From NCBI RefSeq assembly GCF_046119375.1, contig NW_027362764.1, positions 293,074,001 to 293,138,000 on the forward strand: a stretch of 64,000 bases of DNA, in the 5' to 3' direction. Of the stretch, positions 1-41,200 are shown piece by piece. The notes beneath the pieces were generated by a model. The model saw only the letters and a program-made list of their open reading frames with translations, searched no databases and was not told the origin of the DNA. This stretch comes from Phyllobates terribilis. Lineage: Eukaryota. Within the stretch, counting starts at the first letter, position 1, and each line of letters starts with the position of its first letter. The translations under genes and the position numbers were made by a program.

Positions 1-34
1 TCTATAGGTCTCCGTACAGACTAGCTTAGGACTT

Positions 35-1028
35 TAAATACAAGCAGGTGTAGTACTATAAGAACTTAAAACTTAACGTTTATTACCATTAGATAAAATA
101 TGTGCAAAATGCAAGGACCTAAAAACACACAGTTTGACTGTCTGTGATATAGAATAGCCAAAAGAACTTCCATATATTGTTGCTTCCAGAGATCTAAATA
201 TATGTCATATAAGCATATTGTATCTCTAACACAAACCAAGGAAAAAATGGCAATAAGAAATAGTGGAGCCCACGGTACACTATATCAACTTATTGTACCC
301 CAAAATGTGAGAACATGAAAACACTCGCCCTGAGATATGGGAACATGAAAACACTCGCCCTACCAGTGGTGACCATTTAACTTTGTTATGTATAGAAATG
401 GAACATCCTCACCAATTTTGATATCTGTTCTTGCTCTCAGACTTCAGAGGGGGCTCCATATAATGGAGGTGAACCGAAACTCATGAGGTCACCAGCCAAA
501 TACCGCTCCCTAGATGCCGCTCCCGACGCGTTTCTTAGCCTTAGCTATTCATCAGGGGAAAAGGGAAGAGGACATGCGGTATGCACGCTGCCCAAAATCA
601 CGCAGCTCATTCAACAGACAGCGCTACTTAACGTTCTAATAGATCCTCTTTTAAATCCTGGTCGCGCTCTGTTCATAATCGTGTCACTTCCGGTTCCGGT
701 CACCTGACATCCGGTATGTGGAACGCAGATGCCGGCCGTGACACGCAAGCGTCACTTCCGGTGTGCGTGTCATAGACATGATGAAATCGCACACAACGGA
801 GCGACGGCCAGGGGGGACGCAGGATCGCCAATTGACATCCTACGTTGGATGGCACCATGGAAACCTCCCATCCATAAATACCCCAAGCCGGGGCAGGTGT
901 CCAGAGCATATAGTAGCTGACACTCATCCAGGCACATACCATATGTACCGCGGTATATATAACCGCGTCCATTCTGCCCCAGTGGTAAAAGAGCTGAAAA
1001 TACTTCATAGGTCCAGAACCGCACAGTG
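35..1028 (-). repeat. Inverted copy of the PLE pseudo-LTR (left arm)
   Basis: Reverse complement of 3672-4665; only about three mismatches seen by eye. Confidence 0.97.
521..559 (-). ncRNA. Minimal type I hammerhead ribozyme (copy in the inverted arm)
   Basis: Reverse complement of 4141-4179. Confidence 0.85.
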
Positions 1029-2573
1029 GAGGTCTTGAATAGGGGTCTGACTTTTGTACCGACAACAGATTATAATTCTTTTGAGGTCATAAAGGACGTA
1101 AATTTGTTTGTGCGCAAGTTGAAGTGGCGCAAGCACTACATTAAGATTGATAAACAGGCATGCGCGGAATTGGGGGTTCGTGAAGAACTCCTACCTGACA
1201 TTAGAACCCTTTTTCACCTCGGTGATGTTGATCCTAACCTTGAGGGTAATGGTCCATTCACCAATCTGAAACTGAAGAGTACCAAAATGCCACCTCCACA
1301 GAGTGATTTGAGTCCCATTGATGTATTCCTGAACATGGTGACTAAAGACTTGAGGGACCTGGAAAATGATTCCAGACGTTTTAGACACAATTTCACTCGT
1401 TGTGAGATGCAGGCATTGAGGTCCCTAGAAAATGATGAACAGATCACCATAAAACCTTCAGATAAAGGGGGTAACGTGGTGATCATGGATACCAGTGAGT
1501 ACTATTTGATGTGCAGTGTAATACTAAATGCTAAGGAGTGTTATAGCACATTAAAGGCGGACCCCACGAGGAGATTCTCTCAAGAATTAGAGGAATTGGC
1601 AAATGAGGCTATGAGGGATGGGATCTTAAATAAACAGGAGAGAGATTTTATCTGTCCAACCCATCCAGTTATGTCCACCTTCTATAGTCTTCCAAAGGTA
1701 CATAAGGGCCTGAACCCACTGAAGGGACGACCCATAATATCGGGAATAAACAATCTAACCCAAAATCTGGGAATATATTTGGAGAAGGTACTTAAACCCT
1801 TTGTCTTAAGCTTGAACTCATTTATCGGTGACACCAATGACCTGCTTCGCAAACTAGAAGGTATGACAGTTGATAAAGACGTGACTCTAGCCAGCATCGA
1901 TGTCGAGTCACTATACTCCTCAATACCCCATGATAGGGGTCTGGAGGCGATACGCTTTTTCCTTATGGGGAGAGGCAAACAATTTGAGCGACACAATCAC
2001 TTCGTGATGAAGGCCCTTCAGTTCTGCTTGACAAAAAATGTGTTCCTCTTCGGTGGGAAGTACTTCCACCAACTCAGGGGTACTGCGATGGGGAGCCCTT
2101 GTGCCCCATCGTATGCCAATTTGTACCTGGGTTGGTGGGAGGAAACCGTGGTGTTTGGAGACATCCCCATTGTAGGTGGTGAAAATATTTTGCTATGGGT
2201 TCGATATATTGACGACGTCCTAGTTCTGTGGAAAGGGGATAAAACATCCTTTGGTAACCTCGTGGAAAGGCTTAATCACAATGACCTTAACCTGCATTTC
2301 ACTTTTGAGTTTGACCCCCATGAGTTGCCCTTCCTGGACATTTTGATACGGATAGGGAAGGATGGAGAGATAGAGACCAGTACATATAGGAAAACAACCG
2401 CCTCAAATTCTCTCCTCAGGTGGGAAAGCAACCATCCAGTCCCGCTTAAGAGGGGCATACCGAAGGGGCAATTCATGAGGGTCCGGAGGAACTGTTCGGA
2501 CGATGCCATTTTAGAGCCCAGGCCATCGATCTTTGTCAAAGATTCTATGAGAGGGGTTATCCAAAGAAGGTGA
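1026..2573 (+). CDS. PLE reverse transcriptase; 5'-truncated at the inversion junction and frameshifted near 2509-2512
   Basis: Motifs LNRGLTFVPT, KPSDKGGNVV, PKVHK...GRPIISG, DVESLY, GTAMGS, YIDD, LPFLDI, TYRK. Adding one T to the T4 run gives DAIFRAQAIDLCQRFYERGYP, in frame with the next ORF. Confidence 0.92.
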   Translation: MEVLNRGLTFVPTTDYNSFEVIKDVNLFVRKLKWRKHYIKIDKQACAELGVREELLPDIRTLFHLGDVDPNLEGNGPFTNLKLKSTKMPPPQSDLSPIDVFLNMVTKDLRDLENDSRRFRHNFTRCEMQALRSLENDEQITIKPSDKGGNVVIMDTSEYYLMCSVILNAKECYSTLKADPTRRFSQELEELANEAMRDGILNKQERDFICPTHPVMSTFYSLPKVHKGLNPLKGRPIISGINNLTQNLGIYLEKVLKPFVLSLNSFIGDTNDLLRKLEGMTVDKDVTLASIDVESLYSSIPHDRGLEAIRFFLMGRGKQFERHNHFVMKALQFCLTKNVFLFGGKYFHQLRGTAMGSPCAPSYANLYLGWWEETVVFGDIPIVGGENILLWVRYIDDVLVLWKGDKTSFGNLVERLNHNDLNLHFTFEFDPHELPFLDILIRIGKDGEIETSTYRKTTASNSLLRWESNHPVPLKRGIPKGQFMRVRRNCSDDAILEPRPSIFVKDSMRGVIQRR

Positions 2574-3316
2574 TAGCCGAGGCCTATGGGGGGACTCTGG
2601 CCAGGGACCGCTCCTCCTTGTTACACCCATCCCCAAATTTGGATAAGGACAACACTTTCTGCAGACTCATCACTACTGTCACCAATCAGTCATATACAGT
2701 CCGTAGGATACTACAAAAACATTGGCCGATTTTACTAATGGACGAGGATATTGGTGACGTGGTCGATTCAAGACCTATGATTACCTATAAAAAGGGTAGA
2801 TCCCTTAGGGACAGATTGGTCCACAGTCACTATATGGGCCATATGGGGAACAAAAGGTTGAAAAGTTCCATAATCGGCTTTTTTAGATGCAGTGGATGCG
2901 TATCATGTAAAGTTATCACGCAAGGGAAAGACTTCATAAGTAATGTCACTGGAAAAACATTTGTTGTCAAACATTTCATTAACTGTAGATCCAAGGGAAT
3001 TATCTACATGGCTAAATGTGTCTGCGGAATGGAATATGTGGGGAAAACAAGGAGAGAATTGAGAAGAAGAGTAGGGGAGCACCAAAGGGATATTGTCCTG
3101 AAAAGAGATACCCCCCTGGCGAAACATGTGAACAACGTACACCCGAACAGTAGGGATATAATACGTTTCATGGGAATTGACAAAGTTACGGCCCCACCAA
3201 GAGGGGGCGACTGGGACAAACTGATCCTGCAAAGAGAGACGAAGTGGATCTTTAGACTGCGGACAATGGCTCCCTACGGCCTTAATGAGCAGCTGTCCTA
3301 CAGGCCATTCCTATAA
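2570..3316 (+). CDS. C-terminal part of the PLE protein: Cys-rich linker plus GIY-YIG endonuclease
   Basis: CSGCVSC linker, GIIYMAKCVCGMEYVGKT, RRVGEH, LQRETKWI, PYGLN. Confidence 0.92.
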   Translation: MIAEAYGGTLARDRSSLLHPSPNLDKDNTFCRLITTVTNQSYTVRRILQKHWPILLMDEDIGDVVDSRPMITYKKGRSLRDRLVHSHYMGHMGNKRLKSSIIGFFRCSGCVSCKVITQGKDFISNVTGKTFVVKHFINCRSKGIIYMAKCVCGMEYVGKTRRELRRRVGEHQRDIVLKRDTPLAKHVNNVHPNSRDIIRFMGIDKVTAPPRGGDWDKLILQRETKWIFRLRTMAPYGLNEQLSYRPFL

Positions 3317-3938
3317 TGTAGGGTGAATTAGGGAGAGGAGTGTAGGGACAGCCGTCGAGGAGTGGGGGCGCCACTTGCGCAGGTTCATAGGGTGCCAACC
3401 TCCACTGTCAGGTAGGGATATTACTCTAGCTGCTTAATAGGGCTTTTATAGGTCCCTTTGCCCCCCACATGAATCTCTCTAGCTCTCCATTCTTGTGAGG
3501 CGCGGTCCCTGCCCATTTTCCCTTATGCTCCCTCGCATTTCTTCATACCCCCCTTCCTTTCATATTTTTGTTTTTGTCACATATCCATATTTTCATTTTC
3601 ACCTTTACATTTTTATCATCATAATTCTTTATTTGGGTCTCAAGTGCGCTCTAGGGGCCGGGCCATAGCTTCACTGTGCGGTTCTGGACCTATGAAGTAT
3701 TTTCAGCTCTTTTACCACTGGGGCAGAATGGACGCGGTTATATATACCGCGGTACATATGGTATGTGCCTGGATGAGTGTCAGCTACTATATGCTCTGGA
3801 CACCTGCCCCGGCTTGGGGTATTTATGGATGGGAGGTTTCCATGGTGCCATCCAACGTAGGATGTCAATTGGCGATCCTGCGTCCCCCCTGGCCGTCGCT
3901 CCGTTGTGTGCGATTTCATCATGTCTATGACGCGCACA

Positions 3939-4052
3939 CCGGAAGTGACGCTTGCGTGTCACGGCCGGCATCTGCGTTCCACATACCGGATGTCAGGTGA
4001 CCGGAACCGGAAGTGACACGATTATGAACAGAGCGCGACCAGGATTTAAAAG
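3939..4052 (+). promoter_or_regulatory. Putative Pol II promoter in the pLTR
   Basis: ETS-type sites CCGGAAGT (3939, 4007) and CCGGATGT (3986), and TATA-like ATTTAAAAG (4044), about 90 bp upstream of the hammerhead. Motif-based only. Confidence 0.5.
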
Positions 4053-4140
4053 AGGATCTATTAGAACGTTAAGTAGCGCTGTCTGTTGAATGAGCTGCGT
4101 GATTTTGGGCAGCGTGCATACCGCATGTCCTCTTCCCTTT

Positions 4141-4179
4141 TCCCCTGATGAATAGCTAAGGCTAAGAAACGCGTCGGGA
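4141..4179 (+). ncRNA. Minimal type I hammerhead ribozyme
   Basis: TCCC-CTGATGA-aTAGCtaagGCTAa-GAAAC-GC-GTC-GGGA: intact core, stem I TCCC/GGGA, stem II TAGC/GCTA, palindromic ACGCGT stem III. Predicted cut after C4175. Confidence 0.87.
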
Positions 4180-4890
4180 GCGGCATCTAGGGAGCGGTAT
4201 TTGGCTGGTGACCTCATGAGTTTCGGTTCACCTCCATTATATGGAGCCCCCTCTGAAGTCTGAGAGCAGGAACAGATATCAAAATTGGTGAGGATGTTCC
4301 ATTTCTATACATAACAAAGTTAAATAGTCACCACTGGTAGGGCGAGTGTTTTCATGTTCCCATATCTCAGGGCGAGTGTTTTCATGTTCTCACATTTTGG
4401 GGTACAATAAGTTGATATAGTGTACCGTGGGCTCCACTATTTCTTATTGCCATTTTTTCCTTGGTTTGTGTTAGAGATACAATATGCTTATATGACATAT
4501 ATTTAGATCTCTGGAAGCAACAATATATGGAAGTTCTTTTGGCTATTCTATATCACAGACAGTCAAACTGTGTGTTTTTAGGTCCTTGCATTTTGCACAT
4601 ATTTTATCTAATGGTAATAAACGTTAAGTTTTAAGTTCTTATAGTACTACACCTGCTTGTATTTATATTTACTTTTGTGTAGTTATTTCTACAATCCCCG
4701 TTGCTGCATATTGATTTAGCTTAGGACTTTAGCAGGTCTGATCGCAGGATCAGGTCCCCTGTTACATCGTAGGGATTAAGCTGAATTCTATCGTAGGGAC
4801 AGATCTCCTCTCTTTCCTTAGCTCTGGTAGCAGAACATAACAGTAAGTCCAGCCAGCAAATTCTCTAAGGAAAGATTTTTCTGTTCCATC

Positions 4891-7800
4891 ATGGTGTCGG
4901 TTCAGGATTTGGTTCATCGCCTGCAGGGACTCTCTCTGGAGGTGGCCGAGCTCCGTCAGCACGTGAGTAACTGTCCTGGAGCACATTTCTTAGAGCCTAA
5001 GGTATGTTTGCCGGATTTATTTTTTGGTGAACACCGAGAATTTTTTTCATTTAAAAATGCTTGCTTATTGTATTTTCGTTTGAAACCTAAGTCCTCTGGG
5101 GATGAATCCCAGCGCGTAGGGTTCATAATGTCACTTTTGCGCAAAGAGCCTCAGGAGTGGGCCTTTTCTTTGCAACCTAGTGATACATGCTTCAGATCAG
5201 TGGATAGTTTTTTTTCTGCTTTGGGACTATTATATGATGATCCTGACCGTGTCGCATCAGCTGAGACTGAGTTGAGACGTTTAAAACAGGGATCAGGTAA
5301 TGTGGAAAAATATTGTACTCATTTCCGTCGTTGGTCTACTCAAACAGGGTGGAACGATTCTGCTCTGAAAAGTCTATTTCTTGCTGGGCTCAGTGAAAGG
5401 GTTAAAGACCTGCTAATTGCTTATCCTACACCTGAAGATTTGCAACAGGCTATGCAATTAGCTATACGGGTGGATAGAAGACTGCGTGCAAGGGTTAATG
5501 AGAGCAAATCCTCTGCTATGTCAGTTTCTGGTTATGAGAATGTGTGTACTAACAGTGGTGAACCGATGGAGATTGGATCGGTGGCACCTCGCTCTCAAGA
5601 AAAAGACCGTCGATTTTCTGAAGGCTTGTGTTTCTATTGCGGAAAATCTGGTCATTTGATTAAAGGCTGTGAGCTTCGTATGAAGAAAGAAAAAAATATG
5701 GTCAGTCACGCCCGTATTGCCTGTTTAAATTCCAAGGGTATATTTTTAGCTGCTTCCACGATTGCTCAGAAAAAATTAATGGAATTTCGGGTGTTTGTTG
5801 ATTGCGGGTCTACTCTGAATGTAATTGATGGGGGATTTGTGGAAAGACTCAATTTAAAACCTGAACCTTTATCATCCCCCATTGCTGTGGTTTCTGTGGA
5901 TGGTTCCCCTTTGAAGAATATTACTCTCAAGGTCTGTGAATTTCCTCTCACTATTAATGGTGTTCAAAATGAGAAATTGGATTTGGTAGTGTTGAATAAC
6001 TTGCCTTCTCCAGTAATATTGGGATTGCCCTGGTTAAAATTTCACAATCCTGTACTGGATTGGTCTACCAGTGAAATTAAATCCTGGAGCCATAAATGTT
6101 ATGACAAGTGTTGTAACGGGCGTATTGCAGCTTTGGATAGGGGAGAATTGCCTGTTCCTATTCAGGATTTTTGGAGAGTTTTTTCTGAGAAGGAATCGCA
6201 GGTTTTGCCTCCCCATAGAGACTATGATTGTTCTGTTGAATTTGTCCCTGGAGCGACTCTTCCTAAAAGTCGTTTATTTAACCTTACTATTCCTGAGAGG
6301 AAGGCTTTGGAGGAATACATACAGACAAGTTTGGCCGCCGGTCACATTAGGCCCTCTAAGTCTCCTGTGGCGGTTGGATTTTTTTTTGTAAAAAAAAAGG
6401 ACGGCGGTTTACGTCCTTGTCTGGATTTTCGTGAGATTAACAAAATTACTGTACGCAATCCTTACCCACTGCCATTGATTCCTGATCTGTTTAACCAGTT
6501 AATGGGGGCCAAGTGGTTCTCTAAAATTGACCTTAAGGGGGCATACAATCTGTTGCGCATGAAGGAGGGTGACGAATGGAAGACTGCTTTTAACACTCCT
6601 GTGGGTCATTTTGAGAATCTGGTTATGCCTTTTGGTCTTACTAATGCTCCTGCATTTTTTCAGAATCTGATTAATGACATCCTTAGACCTTTGATCGGCA
6701 AAAATGTGGTTGTGTATTTGGATGACATTTTGATTTATTCGCCGGATCTGGAGTCTCATTGGCGGAGCGTGCGTGAGGTATTACAGTTATTAATGGACAA
6801 TTCGCTTTTTGCTAAGCTGGAGAAATGTGAGTTCGCTGTACAGAGAATTAGTTTTTTGGGCTACATTATCTCCAGCAAAGGTTTTGAGATGGATCCGGTT
6901 AAGGTTCAGGCTGTGCAGGAATGGCCTAGGCCTATTGGTTTGAAATCGATACAGAGGTTTTTGGGTTTCGCCAATTACTACAGAAAATTCATAAAAAAAT
7001 TTTCTAGTATTGTCAAACCTCTGACTGATCTCACCAGGAAAGGTGCTGATGCGGTTCAGTGGTCTTCTGAGGCCATTGAAGCTTTTGTGTATCTCAAGGA
7101 GAGGTTCACCTCTGCTCCCATCCTTATGCAGCCTGATGTTACTAGGCCGTTTTTGGTTGAGGTTGATGCTTCCTCTGTGGGGGTTGGCGCAGTATTGTCT
7201 CAGGATAACGGGGATGGATTACATCCCTGTGCCTTTTTTTCAAAAATTTTTTCGGAGACTGAACTGAATTACGATATTGGTAATCGGGAATTATTGGCTA
7301 TTAAACTCGCATTTGAACACTGGCGCCACTTCTTGGAAGGTGCGGAATTTCCCGTTCAGGTTCTTACGGATCATAAAAATCTGATATATCTTGATGCTGC
7401 CAAGCGCCTGAATGCCCGTCAGGCTAGGTGGGCACTGTTTTTCTCGCGGTTTAATTTCTCCGTTACTTACATCCCTGGTACTAAGAATGTTAAGGCGGAT
7501 GCCTTGTCTCGCAGTTTTTCTCCCATAGTCGGTGCTGAGAAAGAGGAGAACATTTTACAAGAAGGTGTTGTGATAGCTGCTTTGGACTCCGTTTTGGAAA
7601 ATGAGATTCTTAAAGCACAGGAGAATGCCCCTTCTAACACTCCTCATGGGAGGTTGTTTGTGCCTGGGACCTTTAGGAGAGATTTGTTTGTTGAGTGTCA
7701 CGAATCTCGGTTGGCAGGTCATCCCGGAATCTCTGAGACCAAGAGACTGGTGGGTCGCAGTTTTTGGTGGCCTGGATGGCAGAAGGAAGTCATTAAGTGG

Positions 7801-8958
7801 GTGCGTCAATGTACTATATGTGCTAGATCTAAGTCCTCACATACTCCTGCTGCGGGGTTGCTTTGTCCTTTGGAGGTTCCCAGTGCTCCTTGGACACATT
7901 TGCCTATGGACTTTATAACTGACCTTCCCCCCTCTGAGGGTTTTACTGTCATCTGGGTGGTCGTGGACCGTTTTAGCAAGATGTGTCACTTGGTTCCTTT
8001 CGTCAAACTGCCCTGCGCTAAAACTCTCGCTAAGGCCTTTGTCAAGGAAATTGTCAGACTTCATGGCGTTCCTACTGACATTGTTTCTGATAGGGGTCCT
8101 CAGTTCGTGGCTCGTTTTTGGCGTGCCTTTTGTGATAGGTTGGGAGTTCATTTGTCGTTCTCGTCCGGATATCATCCTGAATCTAATGGCCAGACAGAAA
8201 GGAAAAACCAGGATGTTGAGCAGTTCTTGCGTTGTTTTGTGGCAGACAATCAAGAGGGGTGGTCTGAGTTTCTGCCACTTGCTGAATTTGCTCTGAACAA
8301 TCATACATCTTCTTCTGCTGGTTGTTCGCCTTTTTTTTGTTGTTCTGGGAGACATCCGTCGTATGGGTCGTTCTCCAAGTTGGGATCTGCCGTGCCTGAG
8401 GAGGAGAATTTTTCCGGTGATTTGGAGAGAGTTTGGACGGATGTGCGTGGTAATCTTCAGGAGGCCAACAGAAAATCTAAAGACTACTTTGATAGGAAAC
8501 GACAGGAGGTTTTGTTCGCTGTTGGTGACATGGTTTGGTTGTCCTCTAGGAATCTGCGGTTGAGGATTCCTTCAAAGAAATTGGGTCCCAAGTTTGTAGG
8601 GCCCTTTAAGGTGCTTCAGGTTGTCAACCAATCTGCTGTTAGGTTGGAGGTTCCTACCTCCTGGAGAATTAATCCGGTATTTCATGTCTCTCTGTTGAAA
8701 AAAGCTGTTGTATCGGATTGTGACGCCTCTGCCTCTGTTCCTCCGGTGGTGGAGGACGGGGAATATGAAATTTCTCGCATCCTTAACTCTAGACGGTATA
8801 GAGGTAGTTTGCAGTATCTTGTGGCCTGGAAAGGTTTCGGTCCCGAGGATAACTCTTGGGTGAGGTCGGATGATGTTTCCGCGTCCAGACTTATCAGAGC
8901 GTTTCACAGGAGATTTCCTGATAAGCCTGGTCCTAGGGGATCCGGAGGATCCTCTTAG
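4891..8958 (+). CDS. gag-pol: Intact Gag-Pol polyprotein (gag, CCHC knuckle, protease, RT, RNase H, integrase, chromodomain)
   Basis: 1355 aa uninterrupted. CFYCGKSGHLIKGC, VDCGS, YLDD, DAS...GAVL, GHPG...CTIC, VSDRGPQF, NGQTER, YLVAWKGFGPEDNSW. Confidence 0.97.
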   Translation: MVSVQDLVHRLQGLSLEVAELRQHVSNCPGAHFLEPKVCLPDLFFGEHREFFSFKNACLLYFRLKPKSSGDESQRVGFIMSLLRKEPQEWAFSLQPSDTCFRSVDSFFSALGLLYDDPDRVASAETELRRLKQGSGNVEKYCTHFRRWSTQTGWNDSALKSLFLAGLSERVKDLLIAYPTPEDLQQAMQLAIRVDRRLRARVNESKSSAMSVSGYENVCTNSGEPMEIGSVAPRSQEKDRRFSEGLCFYCGKSGHLIKGCELRMKKEKNMVSHARIACLNSKGIFLAASTIAQKKLMEFRVFVDCGSTLNVIDGGFVERLNLKPEPLSSPIAVVSVDGSPLKNITLKVCEFPLTINGVQNEKLDLVVLNNLPSPVILGLPWLKFHNPVLDWSTSEIKSWSHKCYDKCCNGRIAALDRGELPVPIQDFWRVFSEKESQVLPPHRDYDCSVEFVPGATLPKSRLFNLTIPERKALEEYIQTSLAAGHIRPSKSPVAVGFFFVKKKDGGLRPCLDFREINKITVRNPYPLPLIPDLFNQLMGAKWFSKIDLKGAYNLLRMKEGDEWKTAFNTPVGHFENLVMPFGLTNAPAFFQNLINDILRPLIGKNVVVYLDDILIYSPDLESHWRSVREVLQLLMDNSLFAKLEKCEFAVQRISFLGYIISSKGFEMDPVKVQAVQEWPRPIGLKSIQRFLGFANYYRKFIKKFSSIVKPLTDLTRKGADAVQWSSEAIEAFVYLKERFTSAPILMQPDVTRPFLVEVDASSVGVGAVLSQDNGDGLHPCAFFSKIFSETELNYDIGNRELLAIKLAFEHWRHFLEGAEFPVQVLTDHKNLIYLDAAKRLNARQARWALFFSRFNFSVTYIPGTKNVKADALSRSFSPIVGAEKEENILQEGVVIAALDSVLENEILKAQENAPSNTPHGRLFVPGTFRRDLFVECHESRLAGHPGISETKRLVGRSFWWPGWQKEVIKWVRQCTICARSKSSHTPAAGLLCPLEVPSAPWTHLPMDFITDLPPSEGFTVIWVVVDRFSKMCHLVPFVKLPCAKTLAKAFVKEIVRLHGVPTDIVSDRGPQFVARFWRAFCDRLGVHLSFSSGYHPESNGQTERKNQDVEQFLRCFVADNQEGWSEFLPLAEFALNNHTSSSAGCSPFFCCSGRHPSYGSFSKLGSAVPEEENFSGDLERVWTDVRGNLQEANRKSKDYFDRKRQEVLFAVGDMVWLSSRNLRLRIPSKKLGPKFVGPFKVLQVVNQSAVRLEVPTSWRINPVFHVSLLKKAVVSDCDASASVPPVVEDGEYEISRILNSRRYRGSLQYLVAWKGFGPEDNSWVRSDDVSASRLIRAFHRRFPDKPGPRGSGGSS

Positions 8959-8970
8959 AAGGGGGGGTAC

Positions 8971-9392
8971 TGTTAGAACCTTGCTCTTAGGTTTTTTTTC
9001 CTTTGCTGGTCACATGACCTTGTTGGCCTATTTAATCCTGCTCCGCCCTTCTGGCTTTGCTGGACTTCATTGTATATCTACTTTCTAGCTAGCCTGTGCT
9101 CTGTGTCTTGCTCTGTTAGTTTGCTTGGTCTACTGACCTCTATGTTCTATTTATTTTGTTTGTTCGTCTGTCTGCTACTATTTCTGTTAGGAGGTGTCCC
9201 ATATTCCTCCCAGTCCTTAGTACTTGTAGGGATTCCTTCCCCACATCTATAGGTCTCCGTACAGACTAGCTTAGGACTTTAGCAGGTCTGATCGCAGGAT
9301 CAGGTCCCCTGTTACATCGTAGGGATTAAGCTGAGTTCTATCGTAGGGACAGATCTCCTCTCTTTCCCTAGCTCTGGTAGCAGAACATAACA
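8971..9392 (+). repeat. 3' LTR of Gypsy-1 (422 bp)
   Basis: TGTTAG...TAACA termini, preceded by the PPT; matches the split 5' LTR. Confidence 0.95.
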
Positions 9393-10901: not shown

Positions 10902-12533
10902 CAGTTGTGCTCAAAAGTTTACATACCCCGGCAGAATTTTTCCTTTCTTGGCCTTGTTTCAGAGAATATGAATGATAGCAAAAAAACTTTTTCTCCACTC
11001 ATGGTTATTGGTTGATTGAAGCCATTTTTTGTCAAACCACTGTGTTTTCTCTTTTTAAATCTTAATGACAGCCAAAAACATCCAAATGACCCTGATCAAA
11101 AGTTCACATACCCCAGTTCTTAATACCGTGTATTGCCCCCTCTAACATCAATGACAGCTTGAAGTCTTTTGTGGTAGTTGTGGATGAAGTTCTTTAATTT
11201 TTCAGATGGTAAAGCTGCCCATTCTTCTTGGCAAAAATCGTCCAGTTCCTGTAAATTCCTGGGCTGTCAAGCATGAACTTCCTGCTTGAGATCTCCCGAG
11301 AGTGGCTCAATGATATTGAGGTCAGGAGACTGAGATGGCCACTCCAGAACCTTCACTTTGTTCTGCTGTAGCCAATGACAGGTCAACTTGGCCTTGTGTT
11401 TTGGATCGTTGTCATGTTGGAATGTCCAAGTACGTCCCATGCGCATCTTCCGGGCTGATGAGTGCAAATTTGCCTCCAGTATTTGCTGATAACGTGCTGC
11501 ATTCATCTTTCCATCAACTTTTACCAAGTTTCCTGTGCCTTTGTACCTCACACATCCCCAAAACATCAGCGATGCTTTACTGTAGGAATGGTGTTCCTTT
11601 CATCATAGGCCTTGTTGACCTCTCTCCAAATGTAACGTTTATGGTTGTGGACAAAAAGTTCAATTTTGGTCTCATCACTCCAAATTACCTTGTACCAGAA
11701 GTTCTGAGGCTTGTCTCTGTGCTGTTTGGCGTATTGTAGGAGAGATACTTTGTGGCATTTGCGCAGTAATGGCTTTCTTCTGGCGACTCGACCATGCAGC
11801 CCATTTTTCTTCAAGTGCCTCCTTATTGTGCATCTTGAAACAGCCACATCGCTGGTTTTCAGAGAGTACTGAATTTCAGCTGATGTTATTTGTGGGGTTT
11901 TTTTTGCATCCCGAACAATTTTCTTGGCAGTTGTGGCCTAAATTTTTGTTGGTCTACCTGACTGTGGTTTGGTTTTTACAGAGCCCCTGATTTTCCATTT
12001 GTTAATCACATTTTGAACACTGCTGACTGGCATTATCAATTCCTTGGATATTTTTTTGTATCCCTTTCCTGTGTTATGCAGTTTAACTACCTTTTCCCGT
12101 AGAACCATTGACAATTCTTTTGATTCCCCGTGACTCACAATCCAGAAACGTCAGTGGCTGGATGAAAGATCCCAGAGTCTGTCTGGATCCCAAAAACTCA
12201 CTCAGCTTTTATGCACGCACACTGATTACTAGCAAGCAGGTCACAGGTGAGGATGTTACCTTTAGTAGACATTCAAATCCCTTTGGGTCAAATTCTGTGC
12301 ATGTTATCAGGCCAAAATCACTAGGGTATGTGAACTTTTGATCAGGGTCATTTGGATGTTTTTGGTTGTCATTAAGATTTAAAAAGAGAAAACACAGTAG
12401 TCTGACAATAAATGGCTTAACCCAACCAATAACCATGAGTGGAGAAAAAATATTTTTGTTATCATTCATATTCTCTGAAACAAGGCCAAGAAAGGAAAAA
12501 TTCTTCCGGGGTATGTAAACTTTTGCACAACTG
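10902..12533 (-). mobile_element. Tc1 DNA transposon (Tc1-A) with a frameshifted transposase
   Basis: TIRs CAGTTGTGC..AAAAGTTTACATACCCCGG, TA flanks. Minus-strand fragments [31 protein letters not shown]. Confidence 0.93.
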
Positions 12534-32952: not shown

Positions 32953-35671
32953 TGTCACGCTGGGTATTGTGAGAGCCCAGCGTATAACACCGGGAAAAGG
33001 GGAGGGAGCCCTACAACTAGGGAAAGGGAGAGTGAAGACCCATAAACAGATCTAACGACAAACCCTGACTCCCCTATTGCCAAGCAGGAAACCTGGCCCT
33101 AGCTGACCCCATGGCTAGGCCCTAGGCATGGATACGGAGGGGTGAGTACTAAGTCAGCCCCACTACAAACTAAAGTACACACAGGGGAAACAAATAGGGG
33201 AATACATTTAGATCCGAAATGACACCGGAGAAAGCACAGCTACAATCCATGAAGGAACTCCAAGGTAACTCTAGTCGACTACTAGAATCCCAGGCCTGAA
33301 TTGGTATAACACGCAATCACCAGCAACTCTCTGAGGATCTCAGTGTATTTAAGGACACAGCAATTTAGTGCTGATTAACCGCGGAAAGGTGAGGATACCT
33401 CAGGGTCCTAAAGGTAAAGGTATAATCCCCAAGCAAGGTGAGGATCACTGCTTTGTCCTAAAGAGAGAGGAATCATAAAAGGAACTGGGAGATGTTTGTA
33501 AGGCCAAACGCAGCGACCTTCTACAGCTGAACACCAAATGACTGTCTGTCAACCCTGACACACCAGCAGTGTCGGACTGAGGTGTCTGGGGCCCACAGGA
33601 GGAATTGATCCTCGGGGCCCACCCTACTGCTATATGCAAATACCTGTTAACCGTTATCCTTGTTATAGTGGAGCGTCGACTGTAAATCACAGGCGGCTCC
33701 TGCACATCTACTGTGCGCCACCATTACTGGGATGTACAATTACTTTAGCTTGCATTAAAGGGGTTCTTTGGTTAAAAGAAGTTATCACCGATCCATGGGC
33801 TCCACAAAATAGGTGATAACTTATTGATCGTTTAGGTTCGAACATTGGAAAACGCACTGATCGGAAGAATGGGGAAGTTTTATCCCTGTCAGGACACTTA
33901 TCCCCATTTTAAAATGCAGCAGCAGGTGGGACGTCTGACCACAGCCTCATTCATTCTCTTTGTGGCTTCCAGAAAAAAACAAGAACAGTCACTGAGGGAA
34001 TGAATGGATCAGTGGTCAAGTCGCACATGATCTCCAGTCTAATGGGATAAAAACTCCACATTCTACCAATCGGTGCTGGTTTCAGCAGTCAGACCCTCAC
34101 CAATCAATAATTTATAACTTATCCTGTTGAGAGGCAATTACTTGTTTTCCCCAGAGAACCCCTGTAAGCGCATCTTATTCGACATTTGAACACAGTACGA
34201 AATGCTGGCAAACCGGAGGTGCATTGGTGAGACCAAAAGGCATAACCCGACTCTCGAAATGCCCCTCAGTGGTATTGAAAGCCATTTTCCATTTATCCCC
34301 CTCTTTGATTCTAACCAGATTGTAGGCTCCCCTTAAATCCAACTTGGAGGGCACTTTAGCTCCGACAATATGGTTGAATAAATCCAGAATCAGTGGAAGA
34401 GGATACAGATCTTGGACGGTAATTTGATTATGTTCCCGGAAATCTAAACAGAGACGGAGACCTCCATCTTTCTTCTTCACAAAGAAGAACCCTGCCGTCA
34501 CGGGTGAGGAGAACGGTCTGATATGTCCCTTGTCCAGACTCTCAGCAATGAAATCCTTCATGGCTTGTTTCTCAGGCCCAGAAAGATTTGGATTTGGGTA
34601 GTTTAGCTTCCTCAGACCGCCCCCCGGCAATGAGGTGTTTCCCCGCAAAAGGGCTCCGGAGAAGGTGGCCTCACCCTCCTATACCTCGTAGGCATCTATC
34701 CACGCGTATAGCCAACAACATGGCAGCCTCCAAAGACCCAGGGGTTTCGTAAACTACCAAGGCATCCTTCAACCTTTCTGAAAGACCCTGACAAAATTGG
34801 CTTCTAAGAGCCGGGTCATTCCACTTGGTATCAGTTGTCCATCTACGAAATTCAGAGCTATAAGTCTCTGCTGACCGATCCCCCTGCTGAAGGCGACGCA
34901 GCCTGGATTCAGCCAAGGAGATTCGGTCAGGATCATCATAGATGAGAGCCAGAGGCCCGAAAAATCCTTCAACTGATCGGAGACAAACAGAGCCCTTAGG
35001 CAAAGAGAAAACCCAGGATTGAGGATCTCCTTGTACACGTGAGCTCACAATCCCCACTAGCTTCTCCTCATCTCCAGAAGAGAAGGGTCAAAGCTTAAAG
35101 TATAATTTACAAGCTTCTTTAAACAGTAAAAATGTATCTCTACCTCCTGAAAACCTGTCTGGGAGGGCAATTTTGGGCTCAAGCTGGGCCGGCCTTCCCG
35201 CAGAATCCCCAACATTAGGAGTCTGCTGCTGCTGCTGTTGCTGCTGAACGGGAGGGGTGAGCACTAAGTTAGCCCCACTACAAGCTAAAGTACACACGGG
35301 AAACAAATGGGAATACACTTAGCTCCAAGATGACACCGGAGAAAGCTGAGCAACAATCCACAAAGGAACTCCAAGGTAATTCTGGTCGACTACTAGAATC
35401 CCAGGCCTGAATAGGTATAATACGCTATCACCAGCAACTCTCTGAGGATCTCAATGTATTTAAGGACACAGCAAGGAAGTGCTGATTAACAGCAGAAAGG
35501 TGAGGATACCTCAGGGTCCTAAAGGGAAAGGTATAATCCCCAAACAAGATGAGGATCACCGCTGGTCCCTAAACAGAGAGGAATCATAAAAGGATCTGGG
35601 AGATGTTTGTAAGGCCAAACGCAGCGACCTTCTACAGCCGGACACCAAATGACTATCTGTCAACCCTGACA
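32953..35671 (-). mobile_element. Degraded Gypsy remnant (Gypsy-4): one full LTR, one truncated LTR, gag and RT fragments
   Basis: 32953-33560 (TG...CA) resembles 35251-35671. Minus-strand gag (EPKIALPDRFSG, IYDDPDR, WNDPAL) is joined by deletion to RT ([25 protein letters not shown]). No TSD found. Confidence 0.85.
33759..34163. mobile_element. T2-type (Kolobok-like) MITE
   Basis: TTAA|AGGGGTTCT ... AGAACCCCT|GTAA. Confidence 0.65.
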
Positions 35672-38277: not shown

Positions 38278-41200
38278 AGAATAAATCCTCTCCATCCCTG
38301 CTGTTGTCAGTTTCAATCGTCTACGGGGAGAACCGTTATTTCGAACTAGCCCAACTGGACTCTGGAGCAGCCGGGAATCTTATTTCACAGTCCCTGGTAG
38401 AGAAATACCGCATCCCCACCAAACCTCTGGCTGTACCCTTGTCTGTTGCTGCCGTGGATGGGGGGCTCTTACCACGCCCCATCCAACTCATCACCGAATC
38501 CATTACTCTGCAGGTGGGAATGCTGCATTCTGAAAGTATCTCCTTCCATGTTCTGCCTGGACTCTCTCACGCCCTCTTGCTAGGCCTACCTTGGCTCCAG
38601 AAACATGCACCCGTTCTTGACTGGCAGACCGGAGAAGTCCTTCGCTGGGGACAGGGCTGCCATAAGACCTGTCTGGTTCCCGTTCATCCCGTCCGTCCTT
38701 CTCCTACCCCAGCTAATCTACCTGGACTTCCGATTCCTTATTGGTCTTATGCTGATATCTTTAATAAAAAGGAGGCAGAGACACTACCCCCTCATAGACC
38801 ATACGACTGCCCTATCGACCTGTTACCTGGTACTTCTCCTCCCCGTGGGCGTATTTATCCATTATCCGCTGCTGAGACCCGGTCGATGTCCGAATATATT
38901 GAGGAGAGTCTGGCCAGGGGATTCATCCGGAACCTACCTCCCCGGCGGGAGCAGGCTTCTTTTTCGTCAAAAAGAAGGACGGCTCTCTCCGTCCCTGTAT
39001 AGACTATAGAGGCCTTAACCAGATCACGGTGAAGAATAAGTACCCCCTTCCGCTCATTCCGGAGTTATTTGATCGTCTGAGGGGGGCTAGAATCTTCACC
39101 AAACTGGACCTCCGTGGGGCGTACAACCTGGTTCGTATCCGTCAGGGGGATGAATGGAAGACGGCATTCAACACCCGGGACGGCCACTATTAATATCTGG
39201 TAATGCCCTTTGGCCTCTGTAACGCTCCTGCCGTCTTTCAAGAGTTGGTCAATGACATCTTCCGGGACCTTCTCTACTCCTGCGTAGTGGTGTACCTGGA
39301 CGACATCTTGGTCTTCTCTCCGGATCTCCAGACTCACCGGAGGGATGTTCGTCAGGTCCTGCTCAGGCTCAGGCAGAACCATCTCTACGCTAAATGTGAG
39401 AAGTGCCTCTTTGAGCAGACCTCGCTTCCGTTTCTGGGCTACATTATCTCTCAGACCGGCCTACAAATGGATCCTGAGAAACTGTCTGCCATCGAGAAAT
39501 GGCCCCGACCAGAGGGGTTGAAGGCTATTCAACGGTTCCTGGGCTTCGCCAACTATTACCGCCTCTTCATCCCGCACTTCTCTTCCCGGACTGCCCCAAT
39601 TTCCGCGCTCACCCGTAAGGGTACTAATCCCAAAGAGTGGCCGCCCGAAGCAGAGGAGGCCTTTCTTTCCCTAAAACAGGCCTTCTCTTCCGCCCCGGTG
39701 CTGCATCGCCCGGACGGCAACAAGCAGTTCTTCCTGGAAGTTGACGCCTCCTCCTCTGGAGCCGGAGCGGTACTTACTCAAAAATCATCTTCCGGGAGAA
39801 TGGTAACTTGTGGCTTCTTCTCCAAACTCTTCTCCTCTTCTGAGCGCAACTATTCCATAGGAGACCGAGAGTTATTGGCCATCAAGCTGGCGTTGGAGGA
39901 GTGGCGTTACCTACTCGAGGGGTCTCTTCATCCGGTAATAATTTACACTGACCACAAGAACTTGGCTTACCTCCAGCATGCCCAGAGACTTAACCCGCGC
40001 CAAGCCCGGTGGTCCTTGTTTTTTGCTCGCTTTGATTTTGTTCTTCATTTTCGCCCGGCTGACAAAAACGTCAAAGCAGACGCCTTGTCCCGATCATTTC
40101 TGGTGTCCGATCTCGAGGAAGAACCTAAACATATCATCGATCCCGCCAGAGTAATGCAGGTGGCTCCCGTGAGTCTAAATCGTCTCCCTCCCGGTAAGAC
40201 GTTTGTTTCAGTACCTGATCGGGAGAAGATCCTACACTGGGGCCATTCGTCTAAACTAGCTGGCCACGTCGGTCAGAAAAAGACCCTCCAGCTTATTGCC
40301 CGGCACTGTTGGTGGCCTACCCTGCACAAGGACATAATAGACTTTGTTTCTGCCTGTGTGTCCTGCGCCCGCAACAAAGTCCCGAGACATCTGCCAGCCG
40401 GACGCCTCCTTCCGCTTCCTGTACCTGCTGCCCCCTGGCAGCATATAGCAATGGACTTTATAACTGATCTCCCCGTCTCTGCCGGTTGTACGGTCATTTG
40501 GGTGGTCGCTGACCGCTTTTCCAAGATGGCTCACTTTATTCCCCTGCCAGGCCTTCCGTCTGCACCCGAGCTGGCTAAAGACTTTATCCGCCACATCTTC
40601 CGTCTTCATGGCTTGCCCCTCCACATCGTGTCGGATCGTGGGGTACAGTTCACCTCACGTTTCTGGAGAGCCACTTGTAAACTACTAGACGTCACCCTGG
40701 ACTTCTCTTCCGCTTACCACCCACAGTCCAATGGTCAAGTGGAGCGGATCAATCAGAACCTGACCAGTTACCTCCGGCACTTCGTTAATGCCCACCATTC
40801 TGACTGGGTGGATCTCCTACCATGGGCCGAGTTCTCTTATAATAATCACGAGAGCGAATCCTCCTCCAAATCCCCGTTTTTTGTAGTCTTTGGTCAGCAT
40901 CCTCGGATTCCTTTTCCTGTCTCCACCTCTGTGGACAACCCGGCTGCGGAATCTCTCGTTAGCAAATTTTCCTCCATATGGGAGAGTACCCGGTCCGCAC
41001 TCCTTCTGTCATCCGAGCGTATGAAAAGACACGCTGACAAAAAACGCCTGGATCCTCCACAATTTCGTCCAGGAGATAAAGTCTGGCTCTCATCTAAATA
41101 TGTTCGACTCAAGATACCGTCTTACAAGTTAGGGCCTCGGTTCATCGGTCCTCTGGAGGTCATCAGTCAGATCAACCCGGTGGCCTATAAATTGAAACTC

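What the first reader, a model, noticed from the sequence alone, without database searches (positions are those of the whole stretch)
22..4731. Young Penelope-like element with 994-bp inverted arms, mirrored hammerheads and a 15-bp TSD inside a Gypsy LTR
Seen: TSD - inverted arm - truncated RT/GIY-YIG - arm - 51-bp tail - TSD, with near-identical arms. The arm start overlaps the TSD by 2 nt (TA). Established: inverted pLTRs, tails and hammerheads occur in PLEs, and a Cys-rich RT-endonuclease linker marks Neptune-type elements. Inference: this is a very recent and cleanly bounded insertion, good for studying how the inverted arm is primed.
Basis: partly seen in the sequence, partly recalled or inferred. 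Interest (0 to 1): 0.7.

Follow-up and report, generated by a model that had tools for sequence, protein, structure and literature searches.

The report
Double-primed Penelope insertion inside Gypsy LTR
This is a real, young, shortened copy of a known kind of jumping gene (a Penelope-like retroelement) sitting inside another retrotransposon; its mirror-image ends are the family's normal layout, and the regular ends of its sister copies suggest both sides of a 14-15-base staggered cut are likely used to start copying the same source RNA.

Summary
Confirmed: 994-bp inverted arms (35-1028/3672-4665, 3 differences), 51-nt tail, mirrored minimal hammerheads, and a 15-bp TSD present once at the empty site in 30 of 30 sister LTR loci. 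It is not a fold-back artefact. The copy is 5'-truncated (lacks ORF1 and the start of ORF2) and frameshifted, so likely inactive. The layout is the published EN+ PLE pattern and the family norm: 36 of 51 sites are head-to-head. New detail from sister copies: all 32 TSD-bounded inverted sites have TSDs of 14-16 bp (19/11/2) and exactly one tailed plus one tail-less end. Nicks favour TA^(C/G)(C/T)A on both strands, not microsatellites. The arms of one insertion share one source haplotype, and in 8 of 24 neither arm can be a sub-copy of the other. Best reading (inferred): both 3' overhangs prime reverse transcription at two start sites about 50 nt apart, and the two cDNAs join head to head. Neptune membership is likely but no phylogeny was built. 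The scan reached similar double-priming readings before, in this genome and others. New member of a known kind; moderate interest.

The parts
1..21 (+). Gypsy 5' LTR, part upstream of the insertion (the LTR begins about 275 nt before the window)
   Evidence: Matches the 3' LTR; upstream stretch L031
22..36 (+). Left target-site duplication, 15 bp
   Evidence: Identical to 4717-4731; single copy at 9267-9281
35..1028 (-). Inverted, tail-less arm (994 nt): reverse copy of the element's 3' UTR/pLTR; 2-nt overlap with the TSD
521..559 (-). Mirrored minimal type I hammerhead motif
   Evidence: Pattern scan
1027..1028 (.). Head-to-head junction with 2-nt microhomology
   Evidence: Comparison with full-length copy L039
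1029..3316 (+). Remnant of ORF2 (RT-linker-GIY-YIG), N-terminally truncated, 1-nt frameshift at 2509-2512
   Evidence: several sister copies carry an uninterrupted ORF of about 808 aa stop-to-stop
1458..2339 (+). RT motifs DKG ... DVESLY ... GTAMG ... YIDD ... FLD
   Evidence: Pfam RVT_1 E 3.4e-06, below the curated cut-off
2888..2908 (+). Cys linker, CX2CX2C
2996..3289 (+). GIY-YIG endonuclease with CxC and two His (CCHH type)
   Evidence: Motif positions; no Pfam hit
3672..4665 (+). Sense arm (3' UTR/pseudo-LTR)
4044..4084 (+). TATA-like box (4044-4051) and inferred RNA 5' end (4072-4084)
   Evidence: 9 of 77 family 5' ends fall within 13 nt; 0 of 20000 uniform simulations match this; 3 more in later loci. 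No RNA data.
4141..4179 (+). Minimal type I hammerhead; palindromic helix III; predicted cut after 4175
4666..4716 (+). Tail: 50 nt from just upstream of ORF1, plus 1 extra T
4717..4731 (+). Right target-site duplication
4732..4842 (+). Rest of the Gypsy 5' LTR
   Evidence: 2 differences from the 3' LTR
4831..8958 (+). Host Gypsy gag-pol-chromodomain frame, 1375 aa stop-to-stop
8971..9392 (+). Gypsy 3' LTR holding the empty site (9267-9281)

Best explanation
This is a 5'-truncated, frameshifted insertion of an endonuclease-bearing Penelope-like retroelement in the 5' LTR of a Gypsy element, likely made when the element's enzyme nicked both target strands 14-15 nt apart and each 3' overhang likely primed reverse transcription on RNA from one source element. 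Steps. (1) Shown: TSD, arms, tail, and family-wide regularity of TSD length, nick context and end positions. (2) Inferred: a GIY-YIG/RT dimer makes two symmetric nicks at TA^(C/G)(C/T)A-like sites. (3) Inferred: one primer starts at the distal end of the 50-nt tail and the other at its proximal end, as for the two in vitro start sites of PAc. Here this gave a 3.7-kb tailed cDNA and a 1-kb tail-less cDNA. (4) Inferred: the two truncated cDNAs were joined 5'-to-5' through 2 nt of microhomology and filled in. The strict one-tail rule suggests the two starts are coupled, most simply on one RNA read twice (about 55% within this model), otherwise on two RNAs from the same locus. The mirrored hammerheads are a by-product: they lie on opposite strands and could not pair as a dimer within one transcript.
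For: 36 of 51 distinct family sites are head-to-head; 32 of the 36 have a TSD: 14 bp x19, 15 bp x11, 16 bp x2. With the two single-orientation 14-mers the split is 21/11/2; a fixed 14 plus chance extension predicts 19.1/9.6/5.3. All 32 have one tailed and one tail-less end. Under independent choice, no double-tailed case has p about 6e-5 for the first 24 and 1.5e-6 for 33 including L120. All 5 new inverted sites from the tail-free query also had one tail. Half-site preference: (C/G)(C/T) right after the nick in 23 of 32 half-sites against 0.217 background, p 2e-9, and in 7 of 10 held-out half-sites, p 0.0014. Two insertions of different subfamilies sit at the same 14-nt site of a host repeat. 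Same source: the window's arms differ at 0 family-polymorphic sites over 980 nt and share 4 rare variants, while 47 other arms differ at 3 or more (median 26); 14 of 24 insertions have no such difference. In 8 of 24 the tail-less arm holds sequence absent from the tailed arm, so neither is a sub-copy of the other. 18 of 24 tail-less ends lie within -13..+5 of the tail start, and extra or stuttered T/TA occurs at both kinds of end. PAc cuts and extends both strands, starts at two sites bracketing the tail, and is predicted to be a dimer (PMC11167929).
Against: No biochemical or RNA evidence for this family. In about 15 of 24 the tail-less arm is contained in the tailed side, as in this window, so the fold-back rival fits this copy taken alone. 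Later deletions across the palindrome centre do occur (L049 against its duplicates L050, L059, L060) and could mimic reciprocal uniqueness. 6 of 24 tail-less ends lie 31-86 nt short of the tail start. 10 of 24 insertions have 1-8 arm differences at family-polymorphic sites; those in L052, L053 and L055 sit mostly in one low-complexity patch and look like alignment offsets. Arm identity could also come from later gene conversion. Three inverted sites had no TSD and one was not closed; 13 of 15 single-orientation sites had no 14-bp TSD, three of them showing 7-10-nt repeats. Two of the four genome searches had the tail in the query, so tail-less/tail-less insertions are under-sampled, and each search scored only 40 candidates. 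PAc in vitro prefers AT-rich cuts and was reported to need no primer-template homology, unlike the G/C preference after the nick seen here.
Confidence: 0.72

Rival explanations
1. Fold-back: a single TPRT from the tail end stalls, the cDNA jumps onto itself by microhomology and copies its own 5' part, stopping at the tail start.
For: Geometrically fits this copy; explains identical arms at birth and the one-tail rule; inner junctions often show short microhomology.
Against: In 8 of 24 sites the tail-less arm is longer than the tailed one. It needs a separate reason for the precise stop at the tail start. Stutter is seen at both kinds of end. PAc extends both strands in vitro.
Confidence: 0.12
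2. L1-type twin priming on one tandem or circular RNA: one primer at the downstream tail, the other at the end of the upstream pLTR.
For: Tandem units exist (L041, L052, L054, L058, L103). It gives one tailed and one tail-less end. Circular templates were proposed in PMC4209133.
Against: Both arms cover the same interval for up to 4.25 kb (L121). In L091 both arms stop at the inferred RNA 5' end. Tail-less arms often run past that 5' end, as here.
Confidence: 0.09
3. Self-priming on an antisense template, as proposed for Adineta Penelope elements (PMC3846280).
For: Published model for head-to-head repeats.
Against: It predicts palindromes at the junction; this junction has 2-nt microhomology only. 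Family 5' ends cluster downstream of a sense-strand TATA-like box.
Confidence: 0.04
4. Assembly fold-back artefact.
For: No read spanning the locus could be examined.
Against: The flanks are not mirrored and the TSD restores an intact LTR. The arms differ at 3 sites. 31 other sites show the same layout with their own TSDs.
Confidence: 0.02

Closest known systems
EN+ PLE insertion unit with inverted pLTR, tail and TSD (Pen2a_Av, PMC3846280; scheme in PMC8557442 / bioRxiv 2021.04.23.441226; D. virilis Penelope, PMC2377424; passages read)
   Same: Head-to-head inverted 5'-truncated copy, tail at one end, TSD, hammerhead and promoter-like region in the pLTR.
   Different: Tail about 50 nt against 30-40; TSD 14-15 bp and narrowly fixed against 8-10 bp in Adineta and 'variable' in Craig et al.; arms up to 4.25 kb in the family.
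Neptune-clade PLEs (defined in Arkhipova 2006, not read; seen through PMC8557442 passages; Fundulus Neptune, PMC12602865 passages)
   Same: C-terminal GIY-YIG with CCHH, CX2-5CxxC linker, DKG motif, separate upstream ORF.
   Different: No microsatellite targeting at the 34 TSDs of 14-16 bp; no tree with named references was built.
PAc (Poseidon_Ac), PMC11167929 (parts 1-2 of 4 read)
   Same: Two start positions bracketing the tail; both strands used; hammerhead upstream of the start sites.
   Different: PAc is a single-ORF Penelope/Poseidon element preferring ATT cuts, with start sites inside the ORF; here the tail ends about 18 nt before the ORF1 ATG and nicks favour TA^(C/G)(C/T)A.
Minimal hammerheads of metazoan PLEs (PMC4209133, parts 1-2 of 4 read)
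   Same: Type I core, short palindromic helix III, located in the pLTR.
   Different: Helix II of 4 bp and no G10.1-C11.1 pair (an A.A mismatch instead); activity untested.

Membership tests
EN+ Penelope-like element | RT with DKG and core motifs followed by C-terminal GIY-YIG | tested here: met
   Motifs located; uninterrupted ORF of about 808 aa in sister copies; Pfam RVT_1 weak, no Pfam GIY-YIG hit
EN+ Penelope-like element | CCHH motif with CxC between GIY and YIG | tested here: met
   2996-3130
EN+ Penelope-like element | pLTRs from partial tandems, inverted 5' copy, tail at one end | tested here: met
EN+ Penelope-like element | Hammerhead motif in the pLTR | tested here: met
   (44 of 57 motif copies identical); Rfam no hit
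EN+ Penelope-like element | RT phylogeny with PLE/TERT references | not tested
   No named reference sequences were available from the tools; PDB search gave no TERT hit
Neptune clade | CX2-5CxxC linker before the endonuclease (shared with Nematis) | tested here: met
   2888-2908
Neptune clade | RT groups with Neptune references | not tested
   No tree built; nearest named hit is a frog gene model, 47% identical over 363 aa
Neptune clade | Microsatellite insertion bias (reported tendency, not strictly defining) | tested here: not met
   None of the 34 TSDs of 14-16 bp is a microsatellite; one is TA-rich, and two other sites abut TA or TAA runs
Minimal type I hammerhead | Core boxes, helices I-II, palindromic helix III | tested here: met
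Minimal type I hammerhead | G10.1-C11.1 pair (reported as highly conserved) | tested here: not met
   A.A at that position, read from the sequence
Minimal type I hammerhead | Self-cleavage | not testable with these tools
   One arm (L035) starts exactly at the predicted cut, 1 of 77 ends, about 3% by chance

The most novel reading that the evidence does not exclude
The tail is a ruler. A dimeric RT-endonuclease nicks a pseudo-palindromic site 14 nt apart, and its two RT centres sit about 50 nt apart on one RNA. Both copy that same RNA in tandem with strand displacement, so every complete event yields one tailed and one tail-less arm of identical sequence. This Neptune-type family would also have a defined non-microsatellite nick motif.
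Probability: 0.38. Interest if true: 0.7.

Novelty: new member of a known kind. Interest (0 to 1): 0.42.

Why it matters
How PLEs, the closest relatives of telomerase, form inverted pLTRs and a one-sided tail is described as unresolved (PMC11167929, PMC8557442). This family supplies numbers that any model must meet: a 14-nt stagger, a symmetric nick motif, exactly one tail per insertion, and arms from one source. These can be tested in the published in vitro system. The single insertion itself is ordinary and likely inactive.

Tried and rejected
Rfam found no hammerhead at E<=1. MFE folding of the motif region was no better than shuffles, z 0.40, and the tail region likewise. Sequencing runs: no RNA holder listed, so expression, the RNA start and ribozyme cutting are untested. 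Contigs of 6 runs were laid. The unique flank joined to the Gypsy 5' LTR was seen in X4 and X5. No listed contig bridged the inner junction in X3, X4, X5 or X7; this hole proves nothing about presence or polymorphism. The ESM Atlas gave no answer for ORF1; Pfam gave no significant ORF1 family. A simple search for a pseudoknot after the slippery heptamer found nothing convincing. PDB search gave nothing significant. Script one search stopped on an indexing error and was rerun; the hammerhead pattern matched nothing and was replaced. Literature searches found no paper giving a fixed 14-bp PLE TSD or applying twin priming to PLEs; Repbase, Arkhipova 2006 and all supplements were not seen and may hold such data. 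Absolute dating was dropped because no mutation rate came from a call. A formal test of primer-template pairing was dropped because the TA nick preference and the UA-rich start sites confound it.
Full report
Observation. The structure is as described. The arms are 35-1028 and 3672-4665, 994 nt with three mismatches. The 15-mer at 22-36 recurs at 4717-4731 and overlaps the left arm by 2 nt; the tail is 4666-4716. A pattern scan of both strands of 1-4800 found only the hammerhead core at 4145-4175 and its mirror. The host is a chromodomain Gypsy element with a 5-bp TSD, whose LTRs differ at 2 of 422 nt. Its 3' LTR carries the 15-mer once, as does the aligned site in 30 of 30 LTR loci. The Penelope-like element is in one LTR only, so it arrived after the Gypsy copy integrated (inference). 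An assembly fold-back would mirror the flanks and would not leave a TSD; it is rejected at about 2%, though no spanning read could be seen.

What the element is. The window holds RT motifs, a CX2CX2C linker and a CCHH-type GIY-YIG domain. These match the features given for Neptune and Nematis in PMC8557442 and its preprint (passages). The genome is 10.6 Gb. Full-length sister copies show a unit of about 4.5 kb: tail, an ORF1 of about 257 aa, then ORF2 in the -1 frame with a U-UUU-UUA heptamer in all 14 junctions printed. The window copy starts at unit position 891, lacks ORF1 and about 18 codons after the first Met of ORF2, and has a 1-nt frameshift at 2509-2512. It is 98.7% identical to the nearest of six copies compared, so its direct source was probably not among them. 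It is likely inactive.

Age. The three arm differences are G-to-A changes on the sense strand. The new letter was seen in 2 of 55, 0 of 73 and 0 of 75 other aligned arms. Arm divergence is 0.30% (range 0.06-0.88%) and LTR divergence 0.47%. The insertion is young, but it has had time for three changes, or carries RT errors.

Family census. Four searches (40 candidates scored in each) and five fetches gave 66 family stretches plus the window. After merging adjacent stretches and counting duplicated sites once (L049/050/059/060; L101/105-108; L102/116/127; L124/125; L109 was empty), 51 sites remain. Not every hit was fetched. 36 sites are head-to-head and 15 single-orientation. Of the 36, 32 have a TSD (14 bp x19, 15 bp x11, 16 bp x2), three have none (L047/093, L095, L120) and one was not closed. 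Of the 15, two have a 14-bp TSD, three have 7-10-nt repeats and ten none. The 21/11/2 split of the 34 TSDs fits a fixed 14 with chance extension, expected 19.1/9.6/5.3. In the window both nicks match the preferred motif only in the 15-nt register, so some true 15s may exist.

One tail per insertion. All 32 have one end near tail position 46-54 and one at or before the tail start; 18 of the first 24 tail-less ends lie within -13..+5 and six lie 31-86 nt short. The tail is on the sense copy in some and on the inverted copy in others. No double-tailed case was seen (p 6e-5 for 24; 1.5e-6 for 33, under independent 50:50 choice given at least one tail). Two queries contained the tail, so double-tail-less events are under-sampled; the five new inverted sites from the tail-free query all had one tail. 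L047/093 has neither a full tail nor a TSD.

Nick preference. In 32 half-sites from the 16 exact 14-bp TSDs: A at -1 in 18, T at -2 in 16, C/G at +1 in 27, C/T at +2 in 27, A at +3 in 20. (C/G)(C/T) occurs in 23 of 32 against 0.217, p 2e-9. In ten held-out half-sites it was 7 of 10, p 0.0014. L056 and L058, of different subfamilies and on different contigs, occupy the same 14-nt site in a common host repeat, with different end details. I read them as independent hits, though a shared history through the host repeat is not excluded.

Same source for both arms. The window's arms differ at no family-polymorphic site over 980 nt and share four rare variants, whereas 47 other arms differ at 3 or more, median 26. 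Across 24 insertions, 80 of 109 arm differences are private and 14 insertions have no shared-site difference. The other ten have 1-8, the larger counts in one low-complexity patch. In eight (L035, L037, L038, the L050 site, L053, L056, L092, L096) the tail-less arm has sequence absent from the tailed side, and the tailed side has the tail. Later deletion can mimic this, as L049 shows.

RNA start and hammerhead. Nine of 77 5' ends fall at window-equivalent 4072-4084, about 30 nt after a TATA-like box; 0 of 20000 uniform simulations matched this, and three more appeared later. One copy has extra G residues there. This likely marks the RNA start, in line with a pLTR promoter in Penelope (PMC2377424 passages). 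The hammerhead has the minimal layout of PMC4209133 (parts 1-2 read) but lacks the G10.1-C11.1 pair. 44 of 57 copies are identical. One arm starts exactly at the predicted cut, which is weak evidence.

Mechanism. A TSD on both sides means two 3' overhangs. Both outer junctions are 3' ends of the element at two preferred positions, with stutter at both. PAc cuts and extends both strands, starts at two sites that bracket the tail, and is predicted to dimerise (PMC11167929, parts 1-2 read). The simplest account is two primings at one staggered cut, then head-to-head joining by microhomology (confidence 0.72, all steps inferred). The one-tail rule and the shared haplotype favour one RNA read twice over two RNAs, but do not prove it. 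Fold-back (0.12), twin priming on a tandem or circular RNA (0.09) and antisense self-priming (PMC3846280 passages; 0.04) fit less well.

Novelty. The architecture is published. Searches found no paper stating a fixed 14-bp TSD, this nick motif or twin priming for PLEs; Repbase, Arkhipova 2006 and supplements were not seen. Also consulted: PMC12602865 and PMC5408684 (passages) and bioRxiv 2026.07.22.740005 (part 1 of 5). The scan's notes hold 167 findings with these words in at least 24 genomes, several with the same double-priming reading. I had that reading before looking; the notes are not independent support. Verdict: real, new member of a known kind, interest 0.42.

Noticed in passing
L039:4201-4968 (-), L052, L058 and other full-length copies: The full-length family has a separate ORF1 of about 257 aa with an Arg/Gly-rich end overlapping ORF2 in the -1 frame at a conserved U-UUU-UUA heptamer; no convincing downstream pseudoknot; a homologue occurs in a frog gene model.
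   Followed up: partly
L121:695-9285: An 8.6-kb palindromic insertion with both arms about 4.25 kb, whose 5' ends lie 9 nt apart, with a 14-bp TSD.
   Followed up: partly
L056 and L110/L058: Two insertions of different subfamilies at the same 14-nt site and in the same orientation in a common host repeat; L057 and L097 also hit one shared repeat about 100 nt apart.
   Followed up: partly
L049 versus L050, L059, L060: Four duplicates of one site; L049 has lost about 1.2 kb across the palindrome centre.
   Followed up: partly
L105-L108 and L101: One 0.9-kb insertion repeated seven times within 35 kb on C4 and once on C16, with identical flanks where checked.
   Followed up: no
L040 outer ends: Reiterated short T-rich and TA units at both junctions, resembling repeated template copying at initiation.
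   Followed up: no
window 4732-9392: The host Gypsy family is young: 40 LTR matches at 98-100% identity; one LTR difference here is polymorphic in the family, 23 T and 7 C.
   Followed up: partly
window 11267-11937 (-): Fragmented Tc1/mariner-like transposase frames (family label from recall).
   Followed up: no
window 298-357 and 4339-4398: A 30-nt direct repeat inside each arm.
   Followed up: no
window 34217-34336, 39144-39259, 40451-40536: Further Gypsy-like fragments at 74-81% identity to the host element.
   Followed up: no
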